From: Octopus vulgaris
Taxonomy: Eukaryota
Assembly (NCBI GenBank): GCA_951406725.2
Contig: OX597829.1
Coordinates: forward strand, 9,796,001-9,860,000
Reading direction: 5' to 3'
DNA length: 64,000 nucleotides
The notes beneath the pieces are model-generated. The model was not told where the DNA came from. It was given only the letters and a program-made list of their open reading frames with translations, and ran no database searches. Each line of letters begins with the position of its first letter. Positions within the stretch are counted from its first letter, which is position 1. The position numbers were made by a program, and so were the translations under genes. Below are positions 3,237 through 63,872 of this stretch, in pieces.

Positions 3237-3242
<6 letters not shown>
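2903..3242 (+). mobile_element. AT-rich foldback insert: 93-bp arms plus tail, no hammerhead retained
   Basis: 2903-2995 vs 3043-3135 inverted. Tail ctaaattgaatttttttccttgtaagtttgaattttattccct resembles tail ctaaatctgatttttccctgtaaatttggatttattccct at ~56038-56077. (TA)n flanks. Confidence 0.65.
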
Positions 3243-9768: not shown

Positions 9769-9820
<52 letters not shown>

Positions 9821-9897
9821 AATCAGTCTGTGTGTGTATGTCTGTTTGTCTTTCCGTCCGTCTGTCGGTCTATCAATCTATCTGTTTGTCTGTCTGT

Positions 9898-9948
<51 letters not shown>

Positions 9949-10038
9949 CATACATATATGGACAGACAGACAAACAGATAGATTGATAGACCGACAGACG
10001 GACGGAAAGACAAACAGACATACACACACAGACTGATT

Positions 10039-10086
<48 letters not shown>

Positions 10087-10090
10087 TATA
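9767..10090. repeat. Near-perfect inverted duplication of a compound microsatellite around a (TA)n tract
   Basis: 9821-9905 is the exact reverse complement of 9954-10038, extended by (TCTA)n/(TAGA)n. Confidence 0.85.
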
Positions 10091-18327: not shown

Positions 18328-18432
18328 GTCTGTCTATCTATATACACACACAAACACTCACTCACACACACTCACTCACTCACACACACACACATATACA
18401 CACATAACGTAACCTTCCATATTATTATCAAT

Positions 18433-18942
18433 GAGTAAGAGAGCAACACATGCCATGAAAATGACGCTGGTGTACAAATACACGAAGTTCGTTACACCCA
18501 TCATAATTCCCGGCTGATAAGAGTGCACCTGGTTCATGCATCACATGGTGACAGCGTATCAAGATAAATAGTGCACAACTCTGTAAGTAGGTTCCAGTTA
18601 GTGTTTTCTTCAAGTCGAGTAGCCAATCCTGCTCAAAAGGTCTCTGAATAAGGTTTGGTTAAGGATGATGACCAAAACACCCATGTTTCTTGAGGTGAAT
18701 TATTCAAATCCTCCAAATTCCTCTTAATATACGGGTACTTCTGCTCATGATCAGAGATGCACATATCGTCAGCCACTAAGGGACATGCTCATCTGGTAAA
18801 GGTCAAACAACTGACAAGCAAATCTATTGAGCAGAATATTTGCTGTAGCCCATCTTTTATACCAAGACAAAACAATGTACATGATAACACTTCTAATCAG
18901 TTAAGATCAGAAGCCATCAGATGCTACCTGGTTCTGCATCAG
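18433..18942 (-). mobile_element. (TAA)n-tailed non-coding retroposon, older copy
   Basis: Shares cagagatgcacatatcgtcagccactaagggacatgctca and the rest of the body with the 58-59 kb copies, but more diverged. Confidence 0.75.
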
Positions 18943-20944: not shown

Positions 20945-21529
20945 AATAAAAGGGTAAATAAATTTTTCGATGGTTTTTCAGACAACCAACAAGTATTTAC
21001 CGGTAGATTTCGGTATGTAAATATGACTTTTAGCGTCGGGAACTTCTGTAGAGTTCAGTATATACAGTATATAAGTAAAAGGGCAGGCAACAGGTTGCTC
21101 TGCCGCATACACAAACAATTAGAAATGGCAGTCAGAGACTGTTTATTTCCATTTTCTACAAGTGGGGGCTCCATATACGACATAACCCTGCGATTCACAT
21201 ACGCAAAATCGGAGTAGTAAATAAACGAAAACAATCCCCTACCGTTAATGGTGAACATGTTTCTAGATCGTAGGCGAGAAATTGCCTAAAGTCTTTCTTC
21301 AGCACCATCTTCGTTAAATTTATCAAATGCCACCAGCCTCCACCTTTGACCAGGCGTCATCAAATAGTGGTGGGGAAAGTGAGCATTAACGGTAAGGGAT
21401 TGTTTTCGTTTATTTACTACTCCGATTTTGCGTATGTGAATCGCAGGGTTATGTCGTATATGGAGACCCCACTTCTAATTCTTTCGGTATGCGGCAGAGC
21501 AACCTGTTGCCTGCCCTGTTACTTATATA
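20945..21529 (-). mobile_element. Penelope-like foldback insert: arms 21068-21250 / 21384-21529, hammerhead in spacer, tail 20945-21067
   Basis: Imperfect inverted arms (left arm carries a ~36-bp extra segment), flanked by TA/GATA tracts. Tail resembles that of the 29601-30243 element. Confidence 0.75.
21248..21308 (-). ncRNA. Type-I hammerhead ribozyme fold with extended stem II
   Basis: Minus strand: AUGGUG-CUGAAGA-A-AGA..UAGGC[AAUUUCUC]GCCUA..UCU-A-GAAA-CAUG-UU|CACCAU; 6-bp stem I, palindromic ACAUGU stem III. Confidence 0.75.
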
Positions 21530-21537
21530 GATAGATT

Positions 21538-28744: not shown

Positions 28745-28750
<6 letters not shown>

Positions 28751-28937
28751 ATAGAAGGAGTTCTACAGGACTAGAACTGTTTCATTCAAAAGAAATCATC
28801 AGGAAGCTTCCTGATGATTTCTTTTGAATGAAACAGTTCTAGTCCTGTAGAAGCTCCTTCTATAAAATAAATTAATTTACTCTGCTATGTATTGAGTACC
28901 TTATTTACTGTGGTTAACCCCGACTCAACCCGGGACC

Positions 28938-28940
<3 letters not shown>
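28745..28940 (+). mobile_element. Small Penelope-like foldback: spacerless ~62-bp arms plus 70-bp tail
   Basis: Palindrome centred on AAG|CTT (28806/28807). CTGATGA..TTC[TTTT]GAA..GAAAC hammerhead-like core at 28811-28838 lacks a matching stem I. (TA)n flanks. Confidence 0.7.
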
Positions 28941-29600: not shown

Positions 29601-30241
29601 TAATAAAAAGGGTTCAGCAAAGAATTGCCTCATCACACACCGAAGTTCAGAAATAGCAGCCAAAAATCTTAGCTATTTCTTCTACTTTAAAAAGGGTCTA
29701 CCAGAGAAACCAAAATACTTGAATGTTAATCACACAGGCAGAGAGTAAAGTAACGAACATCAATCAATATCCGATCATCTATAGACGCGCGTTTCTGAAT
29801 TAGGTTTTTACATAAAGAATATTAAAAAATATACTTTACTAACCATATTCTTCATCAGTATGGATTTTCTGTAATAATCCGAAGGTACTAGAACATTTGA
29901 ACGAATCTTTCTATATAACGGCGTTAAGCCGCTCATGTTCAATGTTAGTACCGCCAAACTCAAAATATGAATGAGAATCGCTTAGCTTCCCCCGCCCTTC
30001 CACGTGTGTCTTCAAGTAATCCTTCAAGTATTTTGGTTTCTCTGGAAGACCCTTTTTAAAGTAGAAGAAATGGCTAAGATTTTTGGAACTTCGGTGTGTG
30101 GTGAGGCAATTCTTTGCTGAACCCTTTTTATTAGTATTACTAAAATTTACCGTGTAACAGTCCTGTTTTCATACCGAATTCTACCTGGTGAAATTTATTG
30201 ATTACTTCTTAATTAATTAATTTTACCCTTTGTTATTATTG

Positions 30242-30243
<2 letters not shown>
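29601..30243. mobile_element. Penelope-like foldback insert: arms 29601-29723 / 30023-30133, minus-strand hammerhead in spacer, tail to ~30243
   Basis: Inverted arms with a 12-bp indel, (TA)n flanks, hammerhead at 29777-29865. Confidence 0.75.
29777..29865 (-). ncRNA. Type-I hammerhead ribozyme fold with long stem II
   Basis: Minus strand: AUCCAUA-CUGAUGA-A-GAAU..GGUU..UAAAG...CUUUA..AACC..AUUC-A-GAAA-CGCGCG-UC|UAUAGAU; palindromic ACGCGCGU stem III, GUC site, stem I 6 of 7 pairs. Confidence 0.75.
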
Positions 30244-30282
<39 letters not shown>

Positions 30283-31365: not shown

Positions 31366-31832
31366 GCTCTCATTCATAGCCAGCAGTTTGCCCTACAACT
31401 GGAATGTACAACCAACAGCAACAGCAGCAGCAACAACATCGGGAGATCACCGAAAAATACTTCAAACATGACAATGTCTCCAACTTCACGTTCCCCTTCC
31501 TCATCAGCATCCCCTCCTTCCCAACTATTGTCAATAGTACCCTGTCAACAGTCGCCCATAACTTCTATGACTACAACAACACCAACAGCAACAACACCAA
31601 CACCAGTCTCCCTCGCCACCACATCTCCCTCACCACCACTGTCGTCGCCGCCGTCGTCCTTATCCCCTTCCTCTTCAGCACCATCTCCGTCATCTTCGTC
31701 ACCGCCACCTTCACTAACTTCATCATCGCCGTTATCTGCAATGTCGACGATGGCGACAAGGACGGCGATGACATCGACGACAAGAGCAACATCACCATCA
31801 GCCAGCACAACACCCGAAATGACAATGTTTCA

Positions 31833-31884
<52 letters not shown>

Positions 31885-32817
31885 CATCACCAAATTAACA
31901 GATTCAAAGTTAGTTCAGCCAATACCAAAGACGAATTCCTTAGCAAATATTCTCCCGTTGATAGCAAAATGTTGTTTGGCACCAACACTAACAACACCAA
32001 TAGCAACGGCGAAGATGCTAATGAAAATAGCAGCAACGATGCTAATGATAATGGCACTAACAGTAAAAGTAACGATAGAATTAATAACAGTGATAATGTC
32101 GATCCTCCGTCGATCGTTAGCAACCGAATGCTATTTCCCGATAGTGTAAATAGCAACAGCGATAGTGACGGAGGTGGTGGGGATGGTGAAGGAGAAGGAG
32201 GAGGAGGAGAAAATGGAGATGGAGGAGGCAACAGCAACAGTATTAGTGCAGGTTCACCACCAAACACCGTTAGCAACACCGAGAGTAAAGTGATGATCGG
32301 TAGCAACTGCAGTAACAGCAGTAGTAATAGCAATTGCAGTAATAGTAACTCTGGTAGAAATAGCAATGGCGACGGTAGCAATGCCAGTGCTGCCGTTTCC
32401 ACCGCCAACAGCAGCAGTAGCAACAAGAAGAACAATAGCAACAACGGCAGCAGCAGCAGCAGCAGCAATAGCAACAAGAATACTGCCATTAACACTATAA
32501 GTGCGGCGAACGCTGCATTGAACCTTGGCAACAGGTTCCCTTGCGAAAACTGCGATAAGGTTTTCACTGACCCCAGTAACCTGCAGCGTCACATCCGTTC
32601 GCAGCATGTAGGTGCCAGGTCTCACGCGTGTCCCGAGTGCGGAAAGACGTTCGCAACATCGAGCGGTTTGAAGCAACACCAGCACATTCACAGCAGCGTG
32701 AAACCATTCCGTTGCGAAGTCTGCCTAAAGGCGTATACACAGTTTTCTAATTTATGCAGACACAAGCGGATGCATGCTGATTGCAGACAACAGATCAAAT
32801 GCAAAGACTGCCAACAG
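31366..32817 (+). CDS. PRDM16/MECOM: PRDM3/16-like coding exon: long S/N/T/G low-complexity insert plus N-terminal zinc-finger cluster
   Basis: tttttttttag| acceptor in frame with ORF 31468. Encodes [94 protein letters not shown], near-identical to EVI1/PRDM16. Donor CAG|gtaatt; 1452 nt, phase 0-0. Confidence 0.93.
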
Positions 32818-33127
32818 GTAATTCTAATTGCTACACCGTTTTTAATTGCTATTTATTTACGGGGCTTTTCTCTTTTTTTTTTATTCCAGAAAGAAGCTGT
32901 GCATTTCACAATAACTCACTCGAGACTTCAATATTGGCAATACGGTTTCGAAGCCAACATATATGCATATACAAACATACAAAAGTATTCGTGGAATTCA
33001 CAGATTCTTCAGATTTAGCGCATGCATGCACATGCGTGCACCACATGCACACACATACATACACTCACACGCACACACAAGTTGACACAGATCTGTATAT
33101 ATACAGTTATATATATGTATGTATATG

Positions 33128-33158
<31 letters not shown>

Positions 33159-34186
33159 ATACATACATACATATGCAGTCATTCGTGCATGCATATAATT
33201 ATAAATATGTATGTAGGTAAGTGTACTTATAATAAGGAAAGTGGGCACGTGTATTTCGTTGCAGCAGATCAGTATAGGATTATTGAAATTATCGAAAAAC
33301 ATGCACTTTCCGAACAAAGTCCCTTGCGATACTTGCTCTGGACAACAAATACTGGGAAGTGTATGTGTGTGCGTGTGACAATTTCACCTGAATTTGGTTT
33401 CACAAATGACCAAAATTATTCTTAATTAAGATTCAATTCAGCTTATTATGAACTTGAATTGCTTGATAATTACTTGTTTCAATCTTCCAATTAGTATCTC
33501 ATTATTGACGCTGAAGCAGTGTTGTGTAATTTTAAAGAAATATAAAATGGCAAACAAGAATTAATTATAGAAAGCTAAATTCCTACGAGGTACAATTCTT
33601 ATTTGGGAGGCGATGAAAAGAATTACAACTCACTGGACACAATTCAAGCAGCATGCACAATATGTGTGTGTAACCATATATACGTGTGTGTGTGTGTATG
33701 TATATATATATATATAACTCTCCATGTGCATTGTGGAAAATTCCCCTCATTGATCTTTTCTTTATCTGCATGCCTTGTTGCAGTTGGATGCTCTACAATT
33801 GGCACCGGGTTCCAAAAGCTATTATCAGAAACAATTTGATTGGCAGCTTCTGTCTTTTGTCTTCTTTAGTTTTTCTCTATTTGTCATTATCTTTTCTTCA
33901 TTCTTTCTAGTTTTGTTTTGCATTGTTTTTGTCTAAGGGCTTTTGTTTTGTTACTTAATTTTTAGCACATCATACACCTACTTAATTTTAAACTTCCTTC
34001 CAAGGAGTTAATACCTTCATCTAAGCCATTGGATACTTCACTGCGCATACTCTTCTCTGACTATCCCGTTTTGTTATTTATTTTTTTCTTTTATTTTTTT
34101 TTGTATATTCTATTCTGCTCATCAAATCAGACATGTTTTTTTCTTACAATTTTTACCAAAGTTTATAGCTTCATTAGCACTGTTGA

Positions 34187-34302
<116 letters not shown>

Positions 34303-34305
34303 ATC

Positions 34306-34391
<86 letters not shown>

Positions 34392-35051
34392 TATATGTGT
34401 GTGTATGTATGTATGTATGTATGTATGTATGTATGTGTGTGTATGTATGTATAAACATACGCATACACGTACTGTTTAACTTAGAATCTTTGTATTCCAC
34501 TTCTGGAGTGTTATTCATATTTTTGACATTACACTAAATATAAGGAATTTTCTCTTTTAATTCCCTTCATGAATCCTTTAATGACCATCCTGTATCCTTC
34601 CAGATTTGTTGGATGTGTAATTCGAGGTTACATCTACCATTGCATACACACCGCAACCATTTGTAGCAATTCTACGTAAGATAACAGTAGGTTGTTAATA
34701 GAAACAGCTGTTAATGTTCTCGGCTGAAAGAGAGACTCAGACATTAGGGCTGTATTCGATCTCTCCTTCTCTCTGTTGACTTTCTTTCTGATATTCTATT
34801 TCGAAATCTCTCGTAAAAGTTAACTTAAGACCAATGTTCAAATTGAATTAGATCTACCCCAAAGACCGACTTAGGAATAAGTTATAATATATTTGCTTCA
34901 AGTTTATTAGATCTTTCGTTTTCCAAAACCTAACTCAAGAGAAATGTCTAGCAGATGTTTATGTGAAGGTTACTGTTGAGCTGAAGCAACCTAGCAGCAT
35001 CTACGCGAAAATAATATGACTTAACTTTTCCATTTCTTTTATTTCTTCCAG

Positions 35052-38000
35052 GTTTTTTCAACTGTAACGTCTCTCGGAAAACACAAGAGATTCTGCGATG
35101 GGGCCTTTCGCTCAAGTAGTGCTGCTGCAGTAGCTGCAGCTGCAGTCGCAGCTGATCACCATCTGCGCATGCGTCTCTGCTACACTCCCGACAAGCTTGT
35201 CCCGGCTGGACTAGGAGCCTTACAGCAAAATACTCCGCTGACAACTGCTGCAGCCGCAGCGGCTGTTTCAGCTTATATGTACGGACAACCTCGACTTTCT
35301 TACTTTCGTCCTTTAATTACTCAACCTCAGTTTGGATCTATTCTTCCTCAGCCATTAGCCGCTGCAATGGCGACATCTAGTTTGGCTGGAACCTCAACAA
35401 CAAATCATAGTGGCATCAATTCCTGTTCTCTTCCTTTGTCTAGTTCTGCTTTGGACACTGACTGCTTTCGATCTCCGGCGGGAGCCATCCCCCCAACCCC
35501 TGCACCAGCACATGCTCATCAACATATACCTCTTCCACCAATGCATCCCGCTACATCCATTGTTTCGCATGCACCTCTGTCGTTATCCTTACCAAAACCA
35601 CAACAGACTCAACATCAACGACTGCAGAGCGAATCAGAAATAAGTGGTCTCAACTTGCATTCTCCCGATTTTATGACTGGTTATAATTTGACAACATCTG
35701 CGGCTAATCTCAGCAATATGAACAGCAGCAGCAACAACAATAATATTAATGATAACAAAGCTAACTCAGATATCAGTCATATTGACAGACACTCAAGTGG
35801 CATGTTGATAAAGGATCAGCTAGATTACGAAAGTCGAAGTCAGAAGAAGCGGAAATGGAGAAAACGGAATAGAAAAATAAGACATAAACGACCTGACGAA
35901 TGGCTGAATTCTGGGCATAATAATTTGATAGAAAAATCAGATATTGACCTTTGGCAGGAAGAACAAGGGTTGAACCTAGATGATGACGATGACAATGTGG
36001 ATAGTTGTTATAAAAGAGACATCTACAAATGGCGTCGAATTGATGTCGAGACCCAGAATAAAATGTGGCCTGAAAATCAAGAGTTTGATGAGAAAAAGCA
36101 TATTGACTGGAAATTGGAGAGATATGATGAGGTAGATCAGGAAAGAGACGAAAGAAAGAGCGGAAGAGAGAAACTGGAAAATGACGATGAATTGGAACCA
36201 ATGGAGAATGAAGACACAGAAAACATTGGCCACGATGTATTGGATAGCAAACGATGGTCTTTTGATAATGCTTTTAATGCTACAGACGATAAAGAGAACG
36301 AACAAAGCGAAACGTCATATGACAGAGATGCCGTGCTAATGCTTCAGCATCAGAAAAAGTATATGGCGGGAGATAATAACAATAACACCATAGACGATAA
36401 CAACAGTAATAGACTGAAAAACAAAGACAGTAACGGTAAGAACACTAATGAGGAAGATTTAAGAACGCTCAGTTCAGAAAATTCGCGTTTAAAATCTGGA
36501 ACTGTCATTGACAATGAACTTGGTCAAGTTAAAGATAAACATGATGTACATCTAACACGGATGTCTGGCGAAAATCCGCTCAGTGGGGGTAATAATAACA
36601 ACAATAGAAGCAACATGATCAACAACAATAGCAACACTAACGACAACAGAAGCAGTACTTTAAATTCTACCGGATGTAAAAGTCCTGCCGCTGTGTCATC
36701 TTTTTCTTGCTCGTCGCCGTCGTCTGCTTCATCCAATTATTCAGAAACAACTTCTGGTGGTGACGACAATGATGATGAAGCAAATATAGATAGCAACGTT
36801 CTTCGTAAGAGGACAGACGACAACAATGACAATTCAGAGACAAGAAAGAAGAAGAAGAAAGAAAGGAAAGCCAGAAAGAGGCAGAGAATGGGAATAGAGA
36901 AACAGGAGGAAAGAACAGAAGTTGTAGTTGTTGGAGAAAATGAAGGCGAAATTGAAGATGGAGATAACAGTGAAGAAGATACTGGCGCAGAAGAATTTAA
37001 AAAGGAAGAAAGAAATTGCCCAAAAAATTCTAACTCTGATTCTACAATGTTACTAGAAAAAGATGACAGCAGACGACAACTGAGAAATGACTACGTAGAT
37101 GCTAAAGATCTCAGTATGACCGGACCTACATCGAGACGAAAGCGAGGTCGCCATAGTAGCTACGGTAACAATAATTTTAATAACAGCAACATAAATAATC
37201 TTCCTTATTACCAATATCGAAACCAACCCCAGTTTGGGAATGCTTTCACAGCAACTGCATTAGCAGAGGCAGCCATGTTCTTAGACGGTGCCCTGAACCT
37301 CCGCACGAGAAACTCTGAAGAACTACAAAGCCATCAACTGTCTAAGAAGAAAAGAAATCCAGATAATGATAATAATAATGATGATGCTAGAAACGAAAAT
37401 GACAACAACTTATTAGAAGCTGTTTTCAATCCATCTTCACTACCAAGTCTTGTATCGATGGCTAAGCGTGGATTAATAGCTTCTAGTGTCGGAAGTGGAA
37501 GTCATAAGAGCCGGAAACGACATCTGCAACCAGGAGTGAACAACAATAACAGTGATAATGAAATTTCTAATCTACAACAGCAGAAACATCAGCGATACTT
37601 ACAAGAGCATCAGCAGCAAATTTATGGCTTTTTAAAACAGGAAACAGAAAACCCTGACTCATTTCCATTCCAGAATTCTCCTACTAAACACCAACAATTT
37701 GATCATCAACAAGAATCAGAACATCAAATAGCCCCATTTGATTTGTCTAAATCTAGCATAGAACAGCGACAACAACAACAACAAAGATTGCAGTCACAGC
37801 AACGCCGTGTAAGATTCAAATCCAGATTGAAAACAAATTTCCAGTCAGGGTTAACCGCGAGCGAACGGGTGGCAGCAGCCATGTCTGCTTACATTGCTGA
37901 AGACGGAAAGCATGATGATGAAGAAGAAGAAGAATTTGAAGAAGACATGTTCGACGAAGATAGTTTTGAGTATGGAAACTTACATGATGTTGACGAAATT

Positions 38001-41000
38001 AAGAGTCGCAACATGGAAGAAAATCGACAGTTTGGACTGCTTCTTAATGACAAACATTTCATCAACAGAGACTACAATTATTGTTATCGAGACTTTTATA
38101 ACAATCACTATTACAATGACAGCATAAGGGAGGAAGATGATGAAGAAGAAGAAGATAAGGTTGAAGAAAGAAAAAATAACGAACGACGTGGGAAGCTGAA
38201 GGATAATTCTATCGGCAATAATTTCCATGAAACCCATAATAATCTGGATGTGAAAGATGAAATAAAAAGCATATTAGATGCCCCGCTTGATTTATCTACA
38301 AATTCTAAGCATACAGTGGATAATATCTTAAACAAAAACACCGACGAGGCATTCATTGCTAATTGTTACCCATCTCGAAAAACTCACGTATATGGATCAG
38401 GTCTTTTGGCCTCATCTAAACTGACGAAAAGCGGGGAGAAGGGAGGCGGTAATGAAGGCTCAGAATTAGATTCCAAAACCATGACTGCTGCACTTAAACT
38501 ATCAGAGTCTGGATCTGAGCTGCACTATGCCTACCCCTTTGCAGGATCTTATATGTTAGATCCCTATTACTCTACGATGGACAAAGAAAAATACACATCT
38601 TCAATGATGGCAACCTTAAATAGATATCATGCCCATTCATCATATCCTACACTACCCCACCACTTACAACATCCCAGCTTTCCTAATCATCTTACATCAT
38701 CTTCCACAACTCATCCCTACCAACATCCCCTCGTTTCATACAGTGGATTTCTAGATTCTTCTATGGACAATAGCCTTTCTTACACAGATAACAACAGTGA
38801 TATGATCCGAGGAGGTGGTAAAAGTGGATCAAATGCCCAGAGTGGCAACAATGGAGGCAACATCATCAATAATAATGACAATAACAACACTCCCACTTCA
38901 AATGCAAACAACAGTAGTTCGCAAACACTAGGAGGAGGCATTCCGTGTTCAGCGTCAGGATTGGGCAATTTCGGCTATAATACAAACAGTCCTCAGACAA
39001 CTGCTTCAACTTTAGCTGCAGTTGCAGCAGCAGCTGCTGGAAATGGTCAGGGTCCTGGTTCGTGTACAGGAATGGGTATGGGTAATTTCAGGTACCCACC
39101 TCCTCCTGGAGGGCATGGCCTTTTATCTGCTGCTGCCGCCGCCGCGGTTGCAGCAGCGGTAGCAGCAGCAGCCGCAGCTAATCGGCCTGGTGGTGGTCCT
39201 GGCACTGGGGTCGGAAGTGGAACACATCACCTCATGGCTGCTGCAGCAGCAGCATCAGGTGCAGGAGCTGCTCTGACTGGCGTCGGTGCCGGAAGTGGTT
39301 CTGCCAGTAGTGGCAGCATGACATTCCATAGCAGCAAGTTTAAGGAAAGGTATTCTTGTAAATACTGTGGCAAAATATTCCCCAGGTCGGCAAACTTAAC
39401 CAGACACTTACGTACACACACCGGAGAACAGCCATACAAATGTAAATTTTGTGAACGCTCTTTTAGCATTTCCTCTAATTTACAACGCCATGTTCGAAAT
39501 ATTCATAATAGGGAACGTCCTTTCCGGTGCACATTGTGCGGCAAAAGTTTTGGTCAACAAACAAATTTAGACCGACACGTTAAAAAACATGAAATACAAG
39601 GACCAAATGTGACAGACTCACCTATTCATGGTAATAATAATGGCGATATTAGTTTCAGTGAAGAGGTGAATTTATCTAAGAGTTCAAATAATGATGACAT
39701 ATTAACGAACCGATTAAGTTTTGATGAAGACTTTAGTATTAAGAAAGATACTAACGAAAATGACCTCAGAATTAGACGAGATTCGAACAATGATAACCGG
39801 TTGTCCAGGAAGAGCATTATTAGTGATAATTTTATCAACAGAAAAAATACAAGTCATGGCAGCTTTAAGGAAGAGTTGTTGAGCAAAACAGGAATAGACA
39901 TTGGGAAAAACTACAGTAACAACAACTATGTTATTTCAAGACTAACCAGCAGCAAGAACAGTGATATTAAAACCAAACCACCAGGTGACAATACATTTAA
40001 TGATCAAAAAGGTGATATTTTTATTGCAGGAAACTATGGCACAAACAAAAGCGATATAAACTATTTAGATAGAAATATGGCTAGATATCTTGATAGTAAC
40101 CATTGTATCGATCTTGTTGTTAACAAAAATTCTTCAAGTAGCAAGGAGTTCTCCAGACGAAATATCGATGAAAATGATATTATAATACGAGACGATCCTT
40201 ACACCATTAACAACGTTGCCAAAGCTGATTCTAAATTTTCTCCCAGGACATCGAATCAACCAGTTTCTGGTTTTGGTGAAAAGCCACTTGACGAAAGATT
40301 CCACGGACAAAATAGAAGAAATTATATCGGTGACGTTGATAATCGTGATGAAGGTGAGAATAAGGAAGAAGGTGACATTGCCCAAAACGATGAAAAAGAC
40401 ATTAAATATAGCAAAGACAAGGATTGGGCGGATGATTATACCAACGAAACTGCTGAGAAAAGTTATGAGTATGAAGGTAAAGTGAAATCTTCGTTCTATA
40501 CTGAAAATAACAAAAGTATTGCAAAACTTTGGAAAAACACAATCGATGAAGAAGAAAACTGTGATTTTGATAGAAACGCTATTAAGGAAGAAGATGACCT
40601 TAATGAAAATATATTGACAAAAAATATTAACAAACATGGCACAAACATTCCCAGTTTGTCTGCTATGGGTGACAGTAATTCAAAGACTTCTAATAAAACG
40701 AAAAAAATTAACCATGAAGTTACCGAAAACTTGTATGATTCCCCCGAAAAATCAAACGACAGGTTCCGAAATATCGAACCCGAAGGAGAAAATGATCTTT
40801 TTGAAAAAGGAAGCATAAAAGTGATTGAAGGAGTCGATATTAAATCTGAGACAAACAACAGCAGTGAAGGTTCTGCTAAAGTTGCTAACGATGCTGAAAT
40901 GAGTCATGAAAATACAATCAGAAACTTTACATTCAGTGCTAGTGAGAAAAACCAAGACGAAAACGTCAATAAAAATGATGATGATAGTATAGTATCTGCA

Positions 41001-42200
41001 GAAAAATGGTCTAACGGTAGTCATGGAAGTAGTGGAGTCGGTGGTTCTTTTCCAAACACCACCTTGAAACGTGACTTCAAATCTACTTCTGTGACTGCCT
41101 CAATTTCTCCTACCCCGCTTTCTACAGCGAATAATAATAATAATAATAATTGCAATTTTACTGCAGATCACGTTGCTGTTACCACAACTGCAGCACATAC
41201 TACTACTATTGGTAACGCTACTACTACGACCACTACTACTAGAATTAGCAGTAGCAATGGTGGAAGAAGCAAAAATAATCTTTTTATTGCTGACAACTTC
41301 AAGAGCGATTTTAGTGGCAATCAAGGCAGAGACAATGTTAAAGTTCCTAACAAAACAGAAAGAATGAAAAGAAGAAATGTTAGTGATGATTATGAAGAAG
41401 AAAACGATGATGGTGAAGAGGATGAGGAAGAAGAAGAGGATGAGGAAGTCAATGAAGATGATGAAGACGATGGAGATGATGACAATGAAGATGAAAATGA
41501 CAAAGATGATAGAAATGATGACAATGATGATGATAATGATGACGATAATGTTGGTGGTGATAATGATGACGGCAGAGAAGAAAACGAAGACGACGATGAC
41601 GATGATGATGATAGAGAAGGAAGGGACGTCGGTGAAAATGCAAATGAAGAGGACGATATGGAGGAGGAGGAGGATGAAGGAGAAGAAGACGTTGATGACG
41701 ATTTGGGCGATGAAAACAACGCCTCTAACGAAGGCGATAACCAGAATAGTCTTAGCTTCTCTCATCACACTCAGAGTAGAAACGTCACATTCAGTGACGA
41801 AACAAGCAACAACTATAAAAGGACGAGCGGCAGCAGTAGCAGCAGAGGCATCAATATCAACTGCACCAACAGCTTCAACAGCTGTAATGACCAATACAAC
41901 AACAACAACAACAAGAATGTTCCCTTGTTGGCACCAAACGAACGTGACAAGTACCAATTCTACGACTGTGGTCGTACCGAGAAAAATAACGACAACGGCT
42001 GTTACAGATATTTGAACTGTATTAACAGCTGCAACGATAACAACAACAGCAGTAACGACTACAACATTAATAATTTTATCGCTAATATTATCAGCAATGC
42101 CCGGTTGAGTTCCGAATTTCACATTTTTTTAAACATTTCAACGAAACCCAGCATTGCTGAAAGAGATTCAGACCCTACGGGAAACAACGATAATATTATT

Positions 42201-42268
<68 letters not shown>

Positions 42269-42593
42269 AACCAAAAATAAATATAACGTTGTTAATGACA
42301 TTAAACGTAATACATTGTATGAAAACTCCCGACGTATTACTGATCACGCGAACTCTTTACCCAACATTGCAACGGCAAATTTTATCTCTAAATTATCTGT
42401 TTTTGCTCCTGAAGCAACCACTGACGAACTCGACGATGTTTCCAAATCGAAATTGAATTACTTACATGGTAAGTGTCAACCGTTTGACACTGCAATCTCT
42501 ATGTGTGGAATTCCATCTCCTTATGACAGGTGTCTAGTAAAAGCCAACAATCGGCATGTAGAATGTAGCTGCTATACGACACCAGCTGCTTAA
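35052..42593 (+). CDS. PRDM16/MECOM: PRDM3/16-like large terminal coding exon: end of ZF7, CtBP motifs, C-terminal three-finger cluster, acidic tail
   Basis: tttcttccag| acceptor, then [17 protein letters not shown] completing the split finger, in frame with ORF 35169-42593. PFDLS at 37734-37748 and PLDLS at 38283-38297. [82 protein letters not shown] at ~39349-39592. The 3' end could instead use a G|gtaagt donor at 42468. Confidence 0.9.
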
Positions 42594-50720: not shown

Positions 50721-51034
50721 CACACACATTCCCTATTTTAGCGTCTGCACATGCATATGTATATAAATTCTGATTGAGGAAATAGTAGATGATCATTGAG
50801 ATCTGCAAACAATCAACTTCATTTCTGCAGATCTATTGAAATGACGCAGGAAACACTTAGTCCTAGTTAAAAAGTTAAATTTTGAGAAGAAATCTTCGGA
50901 AACTATTATTTGAATATATTCAAGTTTATAAGTTCGTCTTCGTGAAGAAAACAAGCATCAAGCGACAAAAGCAAATGAATGAAAATGAAAATGGAAGCAA
51001 TAACAGCATCGACTCTTTAACATCACATACACAT

Positions 51035-51146
51035 CGATGATATTACACCCATCGTAGAGTTTTCTCTGAAGAAAGAAAATTTTGCGCAGTAAAAGATTCT
51101 ATAACACATTATCGCATGACTATATTTCGGAATATAATTTATTGTG

Positions 51147-51209
<63 letters not shown>

Positions 51210-51834
51210 ATATGTGTATATATAATATACACACACACAAATATATACATATATACATATATATGAATGTATGAATATATATATGGATGCATACATGCTT
51301 GCATGTATAATTGTGTGTGTATGACAAATAGAGAGAGAGAGAGAGGGAGAGAGAGAGAGAGGCAGACAGAGCTGGGATGTTTTATGTGAATTATACAAAA
51401 TCTCTTTTGTATAATTTGTTGAGGAAACTTCAGCAAATTTCAGTTTCTCTAATTATACAGTTTATATTCCTTATCATCGTTTAGAAGGTCCAATTGATGT
51501 TCCTGATTTTATCATTCTTACAGCACGTGATTACGCAAGGTGATACTTTCAAACATAAAAAGAATTTAGTATTTTGAAATGGCAGAATCCACAGAGCGTC
51601 GCGGGAAAATGCCTTGTGGCATTACTTCTGGCTTTTATGTTCTGGCTCTTTAGTTTAAATCCAGTCCAAGGTCAACTTTGCCGTTCATCTTTTCATGGAC
51701 AATAAAATAAACAACCAAAAGTCTGGCTAAATTCCTCACCTCAAAACTTCGAGCCTTGTGCCTAAATTATAAGTAGTTGGAGCAGCAACAGCAGCAGCAA
51801 CACCAGAAGTAGTATTAGTAGTAGTAGTAGTAGT

Positions 51835-51868
<34 letters not shown>

Positions 51869-51963
51869 TTAGCAGCAGCAGCAGTAGTAGTAGTAATAAT
51901 AATTATAACAATTATTATTATTGTTGCTGCTGTTGTTGTTGTTGTTGTGGGTTTGGGTTGTTG
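51035..51963 (+). repeat. Local direct duplication, copy A (empty site)
   Basis: Near-identical to 60418-61884 except for the 60577-61095 insert. Confidence 0.92.
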
Positions 51964-53513
51964 GCTTTGGTGGTGGTGGTGGTGGTGATGGTGGTGTTGG
52001 TGGCGGCGGTGGTGTTTCTGTCACTGGTGTTGTTATTGTCGTCGATGTTGTTGGTGTCGATAACGTAATTTTTGTAGTTGTTGAAATATATATTGCAACA
52101 CATTCTCAAGTTTGAATTCTCCTCTCTAATACTTTTTACGACAGTTTCAAGTATTATTTGGAGATAAAAATAACAACTCAGGATTTCATATCAGTCATAT
52201 GACCAACACGTTAACGTTAAAAGCCTTGGCTTATCACTTCAGTATTTTCTTAAAATTTAAGAACCACATTATTTAAATCAATAATCTGGATGATCATATG
52301 TCTTTCAAAACAATACGATCTGGTGACAATATTTGGCTAAATTTGAATTTAAAAGAATACTGCTCTAATTATGTAATTCAATCTAAAGACTCAAAGGACC
52401 AACCGTTTTCCGTTGCTTAAGATTTTCTTCATATTCAAACAACAGCGATGACAGTGACATCGGTGATGACATGTCTTAAATATTAAACTGATATTGAAAA
52501 GGTTTATAATAAATTGAAAACGAATTGTTAGATGTGCAATTTAGGAAAAAATATAGGTTTATTTAAGGGGAATATTAAGATAGTTTTCAATGTCAAATTC
52601 AGTCTACTTTGAAATAACATATCTATAGATTTATTTCACGATATAAATTGAGTTCATTTGGAAAATTAGCATCCCAAAATCATTGATACACTTATTTTAA
52701 TTCTTTACATTTTGTTGATATTTCCATTATTTAGAAGGACTTCAACAAATATGGACTTAGTGTATGTATGCTTGCGTGTGTTCGAACCGTTCTATGCAAC
52801 ATTTGTGAATATTTGTGTTTCAACGAGTGCATATAGATTTCTCTTTATGCTTATGTACGAGTCTAATAAGGAGCTAATGCATTTCGGGATTAATTAGAAT
52901 CAACGAGTGCAGAGAATTTCTATAAAAAGAAAATGGTTTTCATGAAAGCTTTATCAAAAGTGACAGACGAAAGACTTCCTTGTACTTGGACTTCAGATCT
53001 TGAAAAGAAGTAAATCAGATGGAAAGAAATTATCAGCTGGTCCCAATATATCTGCTCTACACCATGTACTGAGTACGCTTTTCTGGAATAAGAATCATAG
53101 AGGCATATCCGTATGCGCTGGTGCACATATATATATGCATGCTGTACACATAAATGCATACTGTACACACACATACTTTATAAATTATAATATATGTATG
53201 CATTATAATACATTTATATACATAGATATGTTATATATATACATGCATACATATGTGAATATATATATATGTATATATTTGTATATATATGTATATACAT
53301 ATGATCAGGCAATAAAAGCCATCTGACTCTTCCCGCCGTTGAGCTAACTGAGCGTAGAAGAGTTAGCGGTTGTTAGTGGAAGCAATGATTCCATTTGCTC
53401 ATTTTACTGGTGCTTTGTGTTAAAGTCTCAAGAATAATTAAAGGCAGCGTTGCTTTTGGTAGAATTTGAACCCGGAAATTACGGAGCAGGAATAAATGCC
53501 CCAATGCATTTAG

Positions 53514-55481: not shown

Positions 55482-55610
55482 ACATATATGTATCTATCTA
55501 TCTATATATATATATATGATATTAATTCGAGACAAAACCACTATTTTGCAAAACAAACAAGGAAAGACTTAATCAATACATAAAAATTTTTAATATAAAG
55601 AAATAAACCG

Positions 55611-55653
55611 CCACTACAATCGTTTCATGTCTTCAATGACATTCGTCAGGTGG
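55611..55653 (-). ncRNA. Minimal type-I hammerhead ribozyme, inverted copy
   Basis: Exact reverse complement of 55869-55911 in the left arm of the palindrome. Confidence 0.85.
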
Positions 55654-55868
55654 ATTTTCGATCTCCTAATCTGTTTTAATTTATGAAGTGAATTCAAACT
55701 CTAGCCGTTATAACTTTAAACAAAATTACGTTACCATAGAAACCGAACATATTTATAAATTTTTTATAAATATGTTCGGTTTCTATGGTAACGTAATTTT
55801 GTTTAAAGTTATAACGGCTAGAGTTTGAATTCACTTCATAAATTAAAACAGATTAGGAGATCGAAAAT

Positions 55869-55911
55869 CCACCTGACGAATGTCATTGAAGACATGAAAC
55901 GATTGTAGTGG
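55869..55911 (+). ncRNA. Minimal type-I hammerhead ribozyme (canonical core)
   Basis: CCAC-CUGACGA-AUGUC[AUUGAA]GACAU-GAAA-C[GAUU]G-UA|GUGG: stem I 4 bp, stem II 5 bp, short stem III, GUA site with predicted cleavage after 55907. Confidence 0.85.
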
Positions 55912-56127
55912 CGGTTTATTTCTTTAAATTAAAAATTTTTATGTATTGATTAAGTCTTTCCTTGTTTGTTTTGCAAAATAGTGGTTTTGTCTCGAATTAA
56001 TATTATATAATATTTTACTATAAAATTGGATTTAATCCTAAATCTGATTTTTCCCTGTAAATTTGGATTTATTCCCTAATATTTATTATTATATATATAT
56101 ATGTATATATGTATTCATACACACACA

Positions 56128-57929: not shown

Positions 57930-57995
<66 letters not shown>

Positions 57996-58508
57996 GAGTG
58001 AGAGAGCAGTTCATGCCATCAAAGTGACACTGGGGTAAAATATACGAAGCCTAATATACCCATCATGACTACCCGTCTGATAAAGGTACACCAGGCACAT
58101 GCATCACAACCATATGTGCGTGACATGGTGATCTCATATCAAGATAAACAGCACATGACCTTGCAGGTGGGGCCCAGTCAGAATTTTCTTCAGGTCGAGT
58201 AACCCATCCCACTCGAAAGGTCCCTGAATAAGGGTTGTTTAAGGATGTTGAACGAAACACCCATATTTCCATTGGTGAATGATTCAAACTCCAAAGTATC
58301 CCTCTCAACACATGGCTATGATGCTACCCCACTACTTCTGCTCGTGATCAGAGATGCACATATCGTCAGCCACTAAGGGACATGCTCAACTAGTTAAGGT
58401 CAAACAACTGACAAGCAAATCTGTGGTATTGAGCAGAATATTTGCTGTAGCCCATCCTTTATACCAAGACAAAACAATGTACATGATAACACTTCCAATC
58501 AGTTAAGA
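57996..58508 (-). mobile_element. (TAA)n-tailed non-coding retroposon, copy 1
   Basis: Highly similar to 59037-59524 and 18433-18942. All share the left end gagt(g/a)agag next to (ATT)n. Confidence 0.8.
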
Positions 58509-58665
58509 TTATTATTATTATTATTATTATTATTATTTAAAATTCGCAGTTGGTTTTGTATCGGGTATTTTATCCGTTATATGTTTATTAGTATTTTGCT
58601 CTCAGACGTTGCACTTGTGACAATAACATAGACTATTACTATTATTTTTACTATTAGTATTATTA

Positions 58666-58858: not shown

Positions 58859-59036
58859 TATTTTTTTATATTTTAGTTTGTTCTCTGAGGTTTTAAAAAT
58901 TCATTTGTTCAAACAGTTTGAATACATATAATGTAATTTTTTGAATGCTACAGATGTATTTAAGAGACTAAAAGAATTTTAGGCATTAAAAATAGTTCAT
59001 CATAATTTTGCATTTAATATTATTATTATTATTATT

Positions 59037-59522
59037 GAGTGAGAGCGCAGTTCATGCCATCAAAGTGACACTGGGGTAAAATATACGAAGTCCAATATAC
59101 CCATCATGACTACCCGTCTGATAAAGGTACACCAGGCACATGCATCACAACCATATGTGCGCGACATGGTGATCTCATATCAAGATAAACAGCACATGAC
59201 CTTGCAGGTGGGGCCCAGTTAGAATTTTCTTCAGGTTGAGTAGCCCATCCCGCTCAAACGGTCCCTGAATAAGGGTTGTTTAAGGATGTTGAAAGAACCA
59301 CCCATGTTTCCAGAGGTGAACTATTCAAACCCCAAAGAATCCCTCTCAACACATGGCTATGATGCTCCCCCACTACTTCTGCTCATGATCAGAGATGCAC
59401 ATATCGTCAGCCACTAAGGGACATGCTCAACTGGTTAAGGTCAAACAACTGACAAGCAAATCTGTGGTATTGAGCAGAATATTTGCTGTAGCCCATCTTT
59501 TATACCAAGACAAAACAATGTA

Positions 59523-59524
<2 letters not shown>
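59037..59524 (-). mobile_element. (TAA)n-tailed non-coding retroposon, copy 2
   Basis: Colinear with 57996-58485; (ATT)n flanks. Confidence 0.8.
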
Positions 59525-59621
<97 letters not shown>

Positions 59622-59649: not shown

Positions 59650-60345
59650 TTTTTTTTTTTTCTTCTTTCAAATTTGCTTCCATTTCTTGCCGAGTGTCTT
59701 CCCGACTCCTAGGGCAAAGAAACTCATAGTATACATTGGTAGGCCATTAAACCAAACTCAGTAGTTCGTTCATTTTTTTTTTCTTTTTAAGTTAAATTAA
59801 GATACATGAGCAGCAACAGTTCTCACATCGAAAATGCTCTTCTCAATACGTGTGATGTACCAGTTAAGACAATCTTTTGCACTTCTTGCAGGGATGGTAA
59901 GCCAGGGATCATTCTCATATAATTTTCGGTTCCCTTCTTGATCATTCCTAGTGCTCCTACGATCACCGCCTTGAGATGCCACATTTTCTCAATTTCAATG
60001 AGTAGGTCTTAATATTTTCTGAGCTTGTCAAACTCTTTCACCGAGATATTATGATCATAGGGAATGCTCATGTCGATCAATAAGCAAACTTTATTGTTTT
60101 GGTCTTTCACAACAATATCTGGTTTATTGGCCTTGATGGTTCGGTCTGTATGTACTGGAAAGTCCCACAGAATGGTTACATTTTCTCCTTCAGTTACAGC
60201 CTCAGGGTGGTGATTATACCACTTGTCGGCAGTTTTGATATTGTAATGCCGACTTTTTAGCCATTGTAGATATTGGCCAACTCTGTCATGTCTTAATTTA
60301 TACTCCACTGGTGCTAAGACTTTACATCCAGAGATTAGGTGGTCC
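59650..60345 (-). mobile_element. 5'-truncated RLE-type non-LTR retrotransposon (R4/Dong-like) in (TAA)n
   Basis: DHLISGC..RHDRV..NKPDIVVKD..LLIDMSIP: end of CCHC knuckle, RHD motif and PD-(D/E) endonuclease. Internal disruption, 3' UTR, A-run, (ATT)n on both sides. Confidence 0.85.
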
Positions 60346-60415
<70 letters not shown>

Positions 60416-60524
60416 ACCGATGATATTACACCCATCGTAGAGTTTTCTCTGAAGAGAGAAAATTTTGCGCAGTAAAATTTCTATAACACATTATCGCATG
60501 ACTATATTTCGGAATATAATTTAT

Positions 60525-60576
<52 letters not shown>

Positions 60577-60583
<7 letters not shown>

Positions 60584-61094
60584 AGCGGGATCAGCCATCT
60601 GAATGTGGCTAGGGACAGGGCGGGGTGGTGGGGGTGTTACTGATGCATTTAGCCCCAGGCGACTATCGACGTCACCAGAAGAGCCGACACCATCACGGTG
60701 TCCTTGCTAGCCTGCAAAGGGAGATCAGCCTCACCGAAGATACGGATTTTCTACGCCAGTGACTGTGGTTACTGTGAAAATCTATATATATCTGGCCTGT
60801 ACAAGAAGTTCCTCAGCGAAGAACGGTGCTTGCCATGCGCTGACAAGAGGCAAATACCTCGAAACCGGTCCGTGTGTAGCATCCGTATCTTCGGTGAGGC
60901 TGATCTCCCTTGCAGGCTAGCAAGGACACCGTGATGGTGTCGGCTCTTCTGGTGACGTCGATAGTCGCCTGGGGCTAAATGCATCAGTAACACCCCCACC
61001 ACCCCGCCCTGTCCCTAGCCACATTCAGATGGCTGATCCCGCTTATATTACAGAGCAGTTACTGTTTATACCTCGCTCAGAGATTCATTATTGT

Positions 61095-61095
<1 letters not shown>
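60577..61095 (+). mobile_element. Penelope-like non-coding foldback insert in (TA)n: ~170-bp arms, 133-bp spacer with hammerhead, ~45-bp tail
   Basis: 60577-60747 vs 60881-61050 inverted with one 1-nt indel. Absent from the paralogous (TA)n tract at ~51150-51200. Confidence 0.85.
60834..60876 (+). ncRNA. Hammerhead ribozyme fold with G8-to-A core variant
   Basis: CAUGCG-CUGACAA-GAGG[CAAAUA]CCUC-GAAA-CCGG-UC|CGUGUG; palindromic ACCGGU stem III, GUC site. The core reads CUGACAA rather than CUGANGA. Confidence 0.75.
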
Positions 61096-61125
<30 letters not shown>

Positions 61126-61750
61126 ATATGTGTATATATAATATACACACACACAAATATATACATATATACATATATATGAATGTATGAATATATATAT
61201 GGATGCATACATGCTTGCATGTATAATTGTGTGTGTATGACAAATAGAGAGAGAGAGAGAGGGAGAGAGAGAGAGAGGCAGACAGAGCTGGGATGTTTTA
61301 TGTGAATTATACAAAATCTCTTTTGTATAATTTGTTGAGGAAACTTCAGCAAATTTCAGTTTCTCTAATTATACAGTTTATATTCCTTATCATCGTTTAG
61401 AAGGTCCAATTGATGTTCCTGATTTTATCATTCTTACAGCACGTGATTACGCAAGGTGATACTTTCAAACATAAAAAGAATTTAGTATTTTGAAATGGCA
61501 GAATCCACAGAGCGTCGCGGGAAAATGCCTTGTGGCATTACTTCTGGCTTTTATGTTCTGGCTCTTTAGTTTAAATCCAGTCCAAGGTCAACTTTGCCGT
61601 TCATCTTTTCATGGACAATAAAATAAACAACCAAAAGTCTGGCTAAATTCCTCACCTCAAAACTTCGAGCCTTGTGCCTAAATTATAAGTAGTTGGAGCA
61701 GCAACAGCAGCAGCGACACCAGAAGTAGTATTAGTAGTAGTAGTAGTAGT

Positions 61751-61784
<34 letters not shown>

Positions 61785-61914
61785 TTTTAGTAGCAGCAGC
61801 AGCAGTAGTAGTAGCAATAATAATTATAACAATCATTATTATTGTTGCTGCTGTTGTTGTTGTTGTTGTGGGTTTGGGTTGTTGTTGTTGTTGTTGGTGG
61901 TGGTGTTGCTGGTG

Positions 61915-61960
<46 letters not shown>

Positions 61961-61982
61961 TATTATTATTATTATTATGTAA

Positions 61983-63028: not shown

Positions 63029-63872
63029 TGAAGAAGACAGTAGAATTGACATGAAGCGCAGCCTCTCTTAGACGCAAGACCACTACATCACATGAAGCTT
63101 TCAGGACTATGCATTCGCAATCCAGAAACAGGTGACTGCCACAAAGTACCTGGTGACCAAAAGAGACAGTGACGCCCTTGTAATCCCAAGGTGCAACCGC
63201 ATGTGTAGGCTATGTCGTGTTTCTGTGGAAGACATCACACATGTGATTAGCAGCTGTCCTAAAATCTTGTCACGGTACTACCTCCCTATGCGGCACGATG
63301 TTGTTAAAAATTTTAAATGGCACCCGAAAAAAAGACTGTTCTGAAATAAACTTTAAAAATCCCTCTGTTATGGAATACATTCATAAACACCAACTCAAGG
63401 AATACTCGTGGAATATTCCCATCAAAGCATCTGTCAAATGTAAACATAACAGGCCGGATATTGTTGTTTGGGACAGAGGGGCAAAGGTATGTACCATCAT
63501 AGAGGTTAGCTGCCCTGCTGATATAAATATCTCTTTGAAAATCAAAGACAAAAAGGATATCTATGGACAACTGATTCGAAACCTCCAGCTTCTGTATCCA
63601 GACTATGAATTCATATTCATACCAATAATAATTGGTGCAATAGGTTTTGTCAGTAAATGTTTAAAGGAGAATCTGGATAAACTGGGATTTTCAGAAAGAG
63701 AAACTGAGCGGCTAATTCGTACATTACAAGTGCAATCTGTGAGTGGAACAATAAAAATATGCAAGACTTTTCTCAAGTTCCAAATGTGAATTTGTTCTTT
63801 GTTAACTATATCTTTGTGAAAATCGGCTCCCTCTTCAGTGGAAGATTAATAATAATTAAAAAAATAGAAGTC
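63028..63872 (+). mobile_element. 5'-truncated RLE-type non-LTR retrotransposon (R4/Dong-like) in (TACA)n
   Basis: CRLCRVSVEDITHVISSC (CCHC), MRHDVV, frameshift near 63300-63340, RPDIVVWD..IIEVSCP, stop at 63789; (CATA)n on both sides. Confidence 0.85.

What the first reader, a model, noticed from the sequence alone, without database searches (positions are those of the whole stretch)
60577..61095. Empty versus filled site: foldback element caught inserting into a (TA)n tract
Seen: 51035-51963 and 60418-61884 are near-identical, but copy B has a ~520-bp GC-richer foldback inside the TA tract that is uninterrupted in copy A (~51150-51200). TA repeats remain on both sides of the insert. This defines the element's ends and shows recent mobility and TA targeting, whether the copies are paralogues or two alleles assembled in tandem.
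Basis: seen in the sequence. Interest (0 to 1): 0.8.

Follow-up and report, generated by a model that had tools for sequence, protein, structure and literature searches.

The report
Head-to-head Penelope-type insertion in TA repeat
A 516-base hairpin-shaped insert sits in the TA repeat of one of two near-identical neighbouring DNA copies; it is likely two back-to-back ends of a Penelope-type retrotransposon RNA, a layout already known in animals, here carrying a ribozyme motif predicted to be impaired.

Summary
Copy A (51031-51964) and copy B (60414-61885) differ by about 0.7%. B has a 516-bp, 52% GC insert (60579-61094) in a TA tract that is a plain 47 bp in A.

It is not a symmetric foldback transposon. 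It is an inverted 171-bp arm joined head-to-head to a 347-bp sense piece. That piece holds a type I hammerhead-like motif, the matching arm and a one-sided 44-bp tail. This is the published layout of Penelope-like element (PLE) insertions in (TA)n.

Five other inserts in the window, unrelated to it in sequence, share the layout. Contigs of four public runs show a high-copy family with both a short end and a tailed end.

Insertion into B is favoured over loss from A, and B is more likely a local duplicate than a second allele; neither was proven. The parent element was not found.

One small extra: the hammerhead core reads C3/A8 instead of C3-G8, and a multi-copy subfamily shares this. An impaired ribozyme may therefore still be copied.

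Verdict: new member of a known kind, low interest.

The parts
51031..51964 (+). Copy A: empty-site copy, in non-repetitive left context (likely the parent copy)
51153..51199 (.). Uninterrupted 47-bp (TA)n target tract in copy A
60414..61885 (+). Copy B: filled-site copy, 9.4 kb downstream, lying between (ATT)n tracts (likely the daughter copy)
60346..60414 (.). (ATT)n tract at the left border of copy B
60529..60578 (.). Left (TA)n flank, 50 bp
60577..60747 (-). Inverted, more truncated copy of the element's 3' part, ending at the short end directly in TA (first 2 bp shared with the tract)
60748..60880 (+). Loop of the foldback = 5' part of the longer sense copy; family sequence, present in many contigs
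60834..60876 (+). Type I hammerhead-like motif: 6-bp stem I, 4-bp stem II closed by G-C, short palindromic stem III, predicted cut after 60870; core position 8 (60845) is A instead of G
   Evidence: variants
60881..61050 (+). Right arm: 3' part of the sense copy up to the short end
61051..61094 (+). One-sided 44-bp tail (long end)
61095..61115 (.). Right (TA)n flank, 21 bp
61916..61978 (.). (ATT)n tracts at the right border of copy B

Best explanation
The 516-bp insert is an inverted short arm joined head-to-head to a longer, tailed piece of a high-copy repeat, and was likely made when a Penelope-type reverse transcriptase/GIY-YIG endonuclease nicked both strands of the TA tract and copied the same kind of hammerhead-bearing RNA from each nick. 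Shown: layout, arm identity, tail, hammerhead-like motif, family abundance, both ends present in the family, and an empty twin site. Inferred: (1) one nick primed cDNA at the outer start point (long end with tail; 347 nt copied); (2) the other primed 44 nt further in (short end; 171 nt copied); (3) the two 5'-truncated products were joined, so the hairpin is a by-product of integration and not a feature of the element; (4) this happened in copy B, or in the allele that templated B, after a local duplication into an (ATT)n tract. It is unresolved (about even) whether the RNA was the pseudo-LTR end of an autonomous PLE or a non-coding retrozyme-like passenger. Odds: PLE machinery about 0.85; two-ended priming specifically about 0.6.
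For: Layout: matches the PLE description (inverted 5'-truncated copy, 30-40-bp tail at one end, (TA)n preference) in PMC8557442 and PMC3846280. Octopus Naiad and Hydra PLE families are listed with (TA)n targets. Mechanism: an Anolis PLE protein cleaves and extends both strands, prefers AT-rich DNA and starts at two sites that bound the tail (PMC11167929). Hammerhead: a type I descriptor gives 6 hits in the window against a mean of 0.2 (max 2) in 50 dinucleotide shuffles; 5 of the 6 lie in these palindromic inserts. The focal motif has the G10.1-C11.1 pair and palindromic stem III described for PLE hammerheads (PMC4209133). In the family, 56-72% of depth has A at 60874, which turns a U-G into U-A in the hammerhead register and breaks the competing fold; 20-39% has the canonical G8. 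Siblings: 6 of 6 hand-picked inserts have a one-sided extension of 44-122 bp, with arms of 61-241 bp and loops of 0-299 bp. Family data (4 of 4 runs): depth falls 18-79-fold from arm to loop, and tail/arm-end depth is 0.32-0.56, near the 0.5 expected for one tail per two ends. Loose ends show the arm running straight into TA in one run and into tail-like sequence in another. One contig in 1 of 4 runs turns strand at a different place (60965/60997).
Against: No RT or GIY-YIG coding sequence is in the insert. No parent element could be sought, as no genome is held. An 18-nt motif was absent from the PLE consensus supplement of PMC8557442 (one strand only, line breaks can hide it). Rfam gives no hammerhead hit at gathering score or among 23 hits to E 10. 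The core is non-canonical in this copy. The depth gradient could also come from a better-conserved 3' part or from internally deleted DNA elements, and contig depth is no copy number. The sibling tails (72-122 bp) exceed the published 30-40 bp. Hammerhead orientation is a real test only in the 55517-56090 insert, where the motif lies in both arms. Two-ended priming cannot be told from snap-back self-priming on one locus.
Confidence: 0.85

Rival explanations
1. Same PLE machinery but one template and one priming event: the cDNA folds back or switches strand, giving the inversion (self-priming model).
For: PMC3846280 interprets head-to-head palindromes as self-priming. The RNA is self-complementary across the loop (z -4.2). 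The arms are identical but for one indel.
Against: One end stops at the short end and the other at the long end in 6 of 6 inserts, which fits two start points; both strands are extended in vitro.
Confidence: 0.25
2. A non-autonomous cut-and-paste DNA transposon (MITE/foldback) that targets (TA)n, like the Mutator-derived pineapple Ac-mMITEs.
For: Long near-perfect inverted repeat, no ORF, TA flanks, high copy number; TA-targeting MITEs exist (PMC8449440 abstract).
Against: The right repeat ends 44 bp before the flank. The loop holds a hammerhead motif whose variants improve its pairing. Five neighbours with no clear sequence similarity to it share the one-sided tail. Depth rises about 9-31-fold along the arm itself (bins 60884-60917 versus 60986-61019).
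Confidence: 0.06
3. A Helentron/DINE-1-like rolling-circle element, whose 3' inverted repeat is subterminal.
For: Asymmetric, subterminal 3' repeat followed by a short tail.
Against: DINE-1 has 13-bp subTIRs, a 7-11-bp 3' stem-loop and TT targets (PMC2374699). Here the repeat is 170 bp, the target is TA, and the tail's own stem is 3 bp in the predicted fold.
Confidence: 0.03
4. Direction reversed (independent of element class): the insert predates the duplication and was lost from A by slippage or recombination between the TA flanks of the palindrome.
For: Long palindromes between direct repeats are deletion-prone (recalled). Arm identity cannot date the insert: 1.2 substitutions are expected in 170 bp at the A/B distance, P(0) = 0.31.
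Against: B looks like the derived copy (bounded by (ATT)n on both sides). Two letters of this copy (60804, 60810) are held by none of the depth in 4 of 4 runs, which hints at a rare or private insertion; contigs drop rare variants, so this is weak.
Confidence: 0.12
5. Copy B is the other allele (a heterozygous bubble) placed into an (ATT)n tract by the assembler, so that the insertion is a heterozygous polymorphism at A.
For: 0.7% divergence is in the range of alleles; only 9.4 kb apart; both borders of B are in simple repeats, where mis-joins happen.
Against: No N in the 64-kb window. Only about 930 bp match; the flanks of A and B are unrelated and nothing between them is duplicated in register. 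B's right border passes through its own 30-bp GT-rich stretch into (ATT)n.
Confidence: 0.15

Closest known systems
Endonuclease-bearing Penelope-like elements with inverted pseudo-LTR and tail (Neptune/Nematis/Hydra/Naiad; PMC8557442 passages, section 11, supplement rows; PMC3846280 passages)
   Same: Head-to-head inverted truncated copy, tail on one end only, (TA)n target, type I hammerhead in the repeated end.
   Different: No ORF here; parent family and clade unknown; no match to the listed consensus set by one 18-nt probe; tail 44 bp; core C3/A8. Canonical Naiads lack hammerheads, so that clade fits least.
Poseidon element of Anolis carolinensis (PMC11167929, parts 1-2 of 4 read)
   Same: Two reverse-transcription start points that bound the tail, AT-rich target, both strands nicked and extended, hammerhead not needed for insertion in vitro.
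   Different: There the ORF starts inside the hammerhead. Here the only ATG frame running through the tail (61029, 22 codons) is at chance level (457 of 1000 shuffles).
Animal non-LTR retrozymes (PMC7229834 passages and part 2 of 6; bioRxiv 10.64898/2026.07.22.740005 part 1 of 5 and passages)
   Same: Non-coding, type I hammerhead, 347-nt sense piece within the 150-450-bp range, self-complementary fold (z -4.2).
   Different: No tandem repeat or circular permutation in this copy; GC 52% (described as under 50%); expression and circular RNA untested.
Microsatellite-targeting MITEs (pineapple Ac-mMITE, PMC8449440 abstract)
   Same: Non-coding inverted-repeat insert in (TA)n, polymorphic sites.
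   Different: True terminal repeats on both ends, Mutator origin, no ribozyme, no tail.

Membership tests
EN+ Penelope-like element insertion | RT plus GIY-YIG ORF in the parent element | not testable with these tools
   None in the insert; no genome held in which to find the parent
EN+ Penelope-like element insertion | Inverted 5'-truncated copy, head-to-head | tested here: met
   171/170-bp arms, unequal truncation
EN+ Penelope-like element insertion | Tail of about 30-40 bp at one end only | tested here: met
   44-bp tail; tail/arm-end depth 0.32-0.56 in 4 of 4 runs
EN+ Penelope-like element insertion | Type I hammerhead in the repeated end | tested here: inconclusive
   Stems I-III and most core letters present, descriptor far above chance; G8 is A in this copy, G in 20-39% of family depth; no Rfam hit; cleavage untested
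EN+ Penelope-like element insertion | (TA)n or AT-rich target | tested here: met
   Empty twin site is pure TA; perfect TA tracts of 16 bp or more make up 3.6% of the window
EN+ Penelope-like element insertion | Short target-site duplication | tested here: inconclusive
   71 bp TA around the insert versus 47-53 bp in A; duplication and slippage cannot be separated
EN+ Penelope-like element insertion | ORF start inside the pseudo-LTR and tail | tested here: inconclusive
   22-codon ATG frame at 61029, but 457 of 1000 shuffles give one, and 0 of 5 sibling inserts have one
Non-LTR retrozyme | Tandem 150-450-bp monomers, each with a hammerhead | tested here: inconclusive
   No tandem in this copy; no tail-to-start joint among the contigs, but the tail end was skipped as repeat; other loci not available
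Non-LTR retrozyme | Highly self-paired monomer RNA | tested here: inconclusive
   z -4.2 for 60748-61094; end-to-end complementarity no better than 365 of 1000 shuffles
Non-LTR retrozyme | Expressed as linear and circular RNA | not testable with these tools
   All 24 listed runs are kept as contigs only
MITE / foldback DNA transposon | Inverted repeats at both termini | tested here: not met
   Right arm ends 44 bp inside
MITE / foldback DNA transposon | Uniform length and structure among copies | tested here: inconclusive
   Steep depth gradient and one different strand turn argue against it; copies not seen whole
DINE-1 / Helentron | 13-bp subTIRs, 3' stem-loop of 7-11 bp, TT target | tested here: not met
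   170-bp repeat, TA target, 3-bp stem in tail

The most novel reading that the evidence does not exclude
A Penelope-type RNA lineage whose hammerhead core is broken (C3/A8) is still being copied into TA tracts in vivo, in tens to hundreds of copies. This locus is one of its newest, still polymorphic insertions, preserved beside its own empty site. That would be natural evidence that ribozyme cleavage is dispensable for mobilisation, so far shown only in vitro, and a ready pre/post pair for reading the integration scar.
Probability: 0.3. Interest if true: 0.5.

Novelty: new member of a known kind. Interest (0 to 1): 0.24.

Why it matters
It corrects the class. Hairpin inserts like this look like DNA foldback transposons but are most likely integration scars of Penelope-type retroelements. 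Six such inserts in 64 kb, four or five with hammerhead motifs, imply a large supply of near-perfect hairpins. If transcribed, they would be ADAR substrates; octopus has an exceptionally high fraction of near-perfect dsRNA-forming loci (PMC5625713, passages). The empty/filled pair is a convenient marker, but TA slippage hides the target duplication, which limits its mechanistic value. The C3/A8 subfamily is the only point that could add something new.

Tried and rejected
Rfam: 0 hits at gathering score in the window; 23 hits to E 10 around the insert, none a hammerhead, mostly driven by TA repeats.

MAFFT of the two copies misaligned the left part and was replaced by pairwise alignments.

A 93-aa open frame across the junction (60653-60931) has no Pfam hit to E 1, and family indels break it: rejected as coding. 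The 22-codon ATG frame through the tail is at chance level.

Other searches that found nothing: a 26-nt motif had 0 matches in metagenome contigs. An 18-nt motif had 0 matches in the PMC8557442 supplement. No look-alike stretch among earlier findings by place, sequence or relatives; none for the dead-hammerhead words.

Circular permutation or retrozyme closure: the tail pairs with the loop start in the fold (10 bp, p 0.9), but the alignment is not above shuffles: not claimed. Independent CpG decay as the source of A8 is disfavoured, because the mirror C>T change at 60844 is not listed at 5% in any of 4 runs.

The palindrome 9769-10090 was dropped from the sibling count as a microsatellite mirror.

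Literature searches for an octopus description of this layout and for G8A in PLE hammerheads (0 papers) found none beyond PMC8557442; the library lacks most subscription papers. Supplements of the bioRxiv retrozyme paper could not be seen and may list related families.

Full report
OBSERVATION. The two copies exist as described. Self-BLAST finds 51031-51196 matching 60414-60578 (97%) and 51179-51998 matching 61095-61919 (98%). Pairwise alignment gives 3 substitutions and 1 gap in 115 columns left of the TA tract, and 4 substitutions (one at the boundary) and a 5-bp gap in 764 columns right of it, about 0.7%. Copy A has 47 bp of pure TA (51153-51199). Copy B has 50 bp TA, 516 bp of insert (60579-61094) and 21 bp TA. 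The insert is 52% GC in a 33% window and folds far better than 100 of 100 shuffles (z -34). It has no other copy in the window.

ANATOMY. The arms are 60577-60747 and 60881-61050, identical over 170 aligned bases with one 1-bp gap. The left arm starts in the TA tract. The right arm is followed by 44 bp of non-repeated sequence before TA resumes. The 133-bp loop holds, on the + strand, a type I hammerhead-like motif: a 6-bp stem I (60834-39 with 60871-76), the core at 60840-46, a 4-bp stem II closed by G-C, GAAA, and a short palindromic stem III, with the cut predicted after 60870. Core position 8 is A, not G. Rfam does not call it. So the insert reads as a 347-nt sense piece (loop + arm + tail), with a shorter inverted piece of the same 3' region placed head-to-head.

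SIBLINGS IN THE WINDOW. From the self-BLAST and palindrome scans I picked six inserts by hand and dropped one microsatellite mirror (9769-10090). All 6 have one arm at a TA run and a one-sided extension: 105, 122, 72, 112, 87 and 44-46 bp. Arms are 61-241 bp and loops 0-299 bp. A type I hammerhead descriptor finds 6 sites in 64 kb, against a mean of 0.2 and a maximum of 2 in 50 dinucleotide shuffles. Five of the six sites lie in four of these inserts; the sixth lies in a SINE-like repeat at 18772. A fifth insert (28746-28940) shows a motif cut at its fold centre (seen by eye); the sixth has none. The focal insert has no clear similarity to the other five; two pairs among those share tails (0 of 200 shuffles each). 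The layout is therefore common to several unrelated families, which points to a shared mechanism.

FAMILY DATA. No genome is held. Twenty of 24 listed runs hold part of the region, all as contigs only. I laid four of them on 60748-61760. Summed contig depth over the arm is about 8,700-15,700 times that over the adjacent flank in the three runs with a clean flank value (the tool warns that this is no copy number). Depth falls 18-79-fold from arm to loop, and tail depth is 0.32-0.56 of arm-end depth. Loose ends at 61034 run directly into TA in one run and into tail-like sequence in another, so both ends exist in the family. One contig in one of four runs changes strand at 60965/60997, a different fold centre. 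At 60874, 56-72% of depth has A, which perfects stem I in the hammerhead register and breaks the competing fold of this copy. At 60845, 20-39% has the canonical G.

THE A8 VARIANT. Most depth at 60845 keeps A, with no compensating change listed at position 3. Two contigs differ from the window at only two places; these must be 60804 and 60810, because all depth differs there, so both contigs carry A8. They lie at about 10 and 17 times the flank depth, in runs of two studies. Total non-G depth is about 190-540 times the flank, but laying favours close relatives. C3 and G8 are both needed for cleavage in the Anolis element, and dead mutants still insert in vitro (PMC11167929). U3-A8 is the known natural covariation (PMC4209133). 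That C3/A8 is impaired follows from this pairing rule and from recall; G8A itself was not found tested.

COMPARISON. PLE insertions are described as 5'-truncated, often with an adjacent inverted truncated copy, a 30-40-bp tail at one end, hammerheads in the pseudo-LTR and (TA)n targets (PMC8557442, passages and section 11). Its supplement lists octopus Naiad and Hydra families with (TA)n preference. Head-to-head inversions with an optional tail are standard in rotifer Penelopes (PMC3846280, passages). Paired hammerheads on opposite strands 100-700 bp apart were noted in schistosomes (PMC4209133, passages). The purified Anolis protein nicks and extends both strands and starts at two sites bounding the tail. 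The insert works like these. Strict membership is not shown, since the RT/endonuclease parent was not seen. A retrozyme-like passenger is about as likely as a pseudo-LTR: the sense piece is 347 nt and self-paired (z -4.2), but shows no tandem and no reliable ORF start. MITE and DINE-1 definitions fail on terminal symmetry and on repeat length and target. Earlier notes on this genome reach the same class for other loci; they are unchecked AI notes and not independent support. The organism was not identified by any search. 'Octopus' is my recalled impression from the repeat landscape and the label in those notes.

DIRECTION AND COPY STATUS. A has non-repetitive sequence on its left. B is bounded by (ATT)n tracts at 60346-60414 and 61916-61978, next to what I recall as the 3' piece of a restriction-like-endonuclease LINE (no Pfam support). 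B is thus likely the daughter copy, and an insert found only in the daughter is most simply new. Loss from A is not excluded: arm identity has no dating power (P = 0.31 of no substitution at the A/B distance). The absence of this copy's letters at 60804 and 60810 from all depth in four runs hints at a rare insertion, but could reflect dropped contigs or assembly errors. No contig bridges either junction, because the TA tracts were skipped. Depth over copy A was not obtained, so whether B exists in other animals, or is a misplaced allele, is open. The lack of Ns and of shared flanks favours a real local duplicate.

VERDICT. Real feature, correctly seen, misclassified as a foldback element. It is most likely a head-to-head Penelope-type insertion with tail in (TA)n, a new member of a known kind and one of many in this genome. 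Interest 0.24. The impaired-ribozyme subfamily is the one lead worth a follow-up (probability 0.3, interest 0.5 if true).

Noticed in passing
window 2903-3240, 20946-21530, 28746-28940, 29601-30245, 55517-56090: Five more head-to-head inserts with a one-sided tail at (TA)n; hammerhead-like motifs at 21302(-), 29858(-), 55649(-)/55873(+). The 21302 and 29858 motifs have long, branched stem II regions. Tails are related within the pairs 2903/55517 and 20946/29601.
   Followed up: partly
window 60346-61978: A 930-bp piece of non-repetitive DNA copied 9.4 kb downstream into an (ATT)n tract, next to a LINE fragment: possibly a templated repair insertion or a template jump by an (ATT)n-targeting LINE; mechanism unresolved.
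   Followed up: partly
window 59650-60345 (-) and 63247-63786 (+): Fragments that resemble the C-terminal restriction-like endonuclease of R4/Dong/HERO-type LINEs (label recalled; no significant Pfam hit); the first lies between (ATT)n tracts.
   Followed up: partly
window 31366-42590 (+): C2H2 zinc-finger gene with a 2522-codon open frame (35025-42590) and two finger clusters; resembles MECOM/PRDM16/Hamlet (name recalled; Pfam zf-C2H2 confirmed for the first cluster).
   Followed up: partly
window 18420-18907, 57973-58537, 59014-59577: About 510-bp SINE-like repeat, the last two copies flanked by (ATT)n and 93.6% alike; the 18420 copy gave the one hammerhead-descriptor hit outside the palindromes (18772).
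   Followed up: no
window 9769-10090: 322-bp near-perfect palindrome made of mixed microsatellites with a TA centre; no tail or ribozyme motif, origin unexplained.
   Followed up: no
window 61585-61627: Short piece of a very high-copy repeat inside the duplicated segment (depth jump and many loose ends).
   Followed up: no
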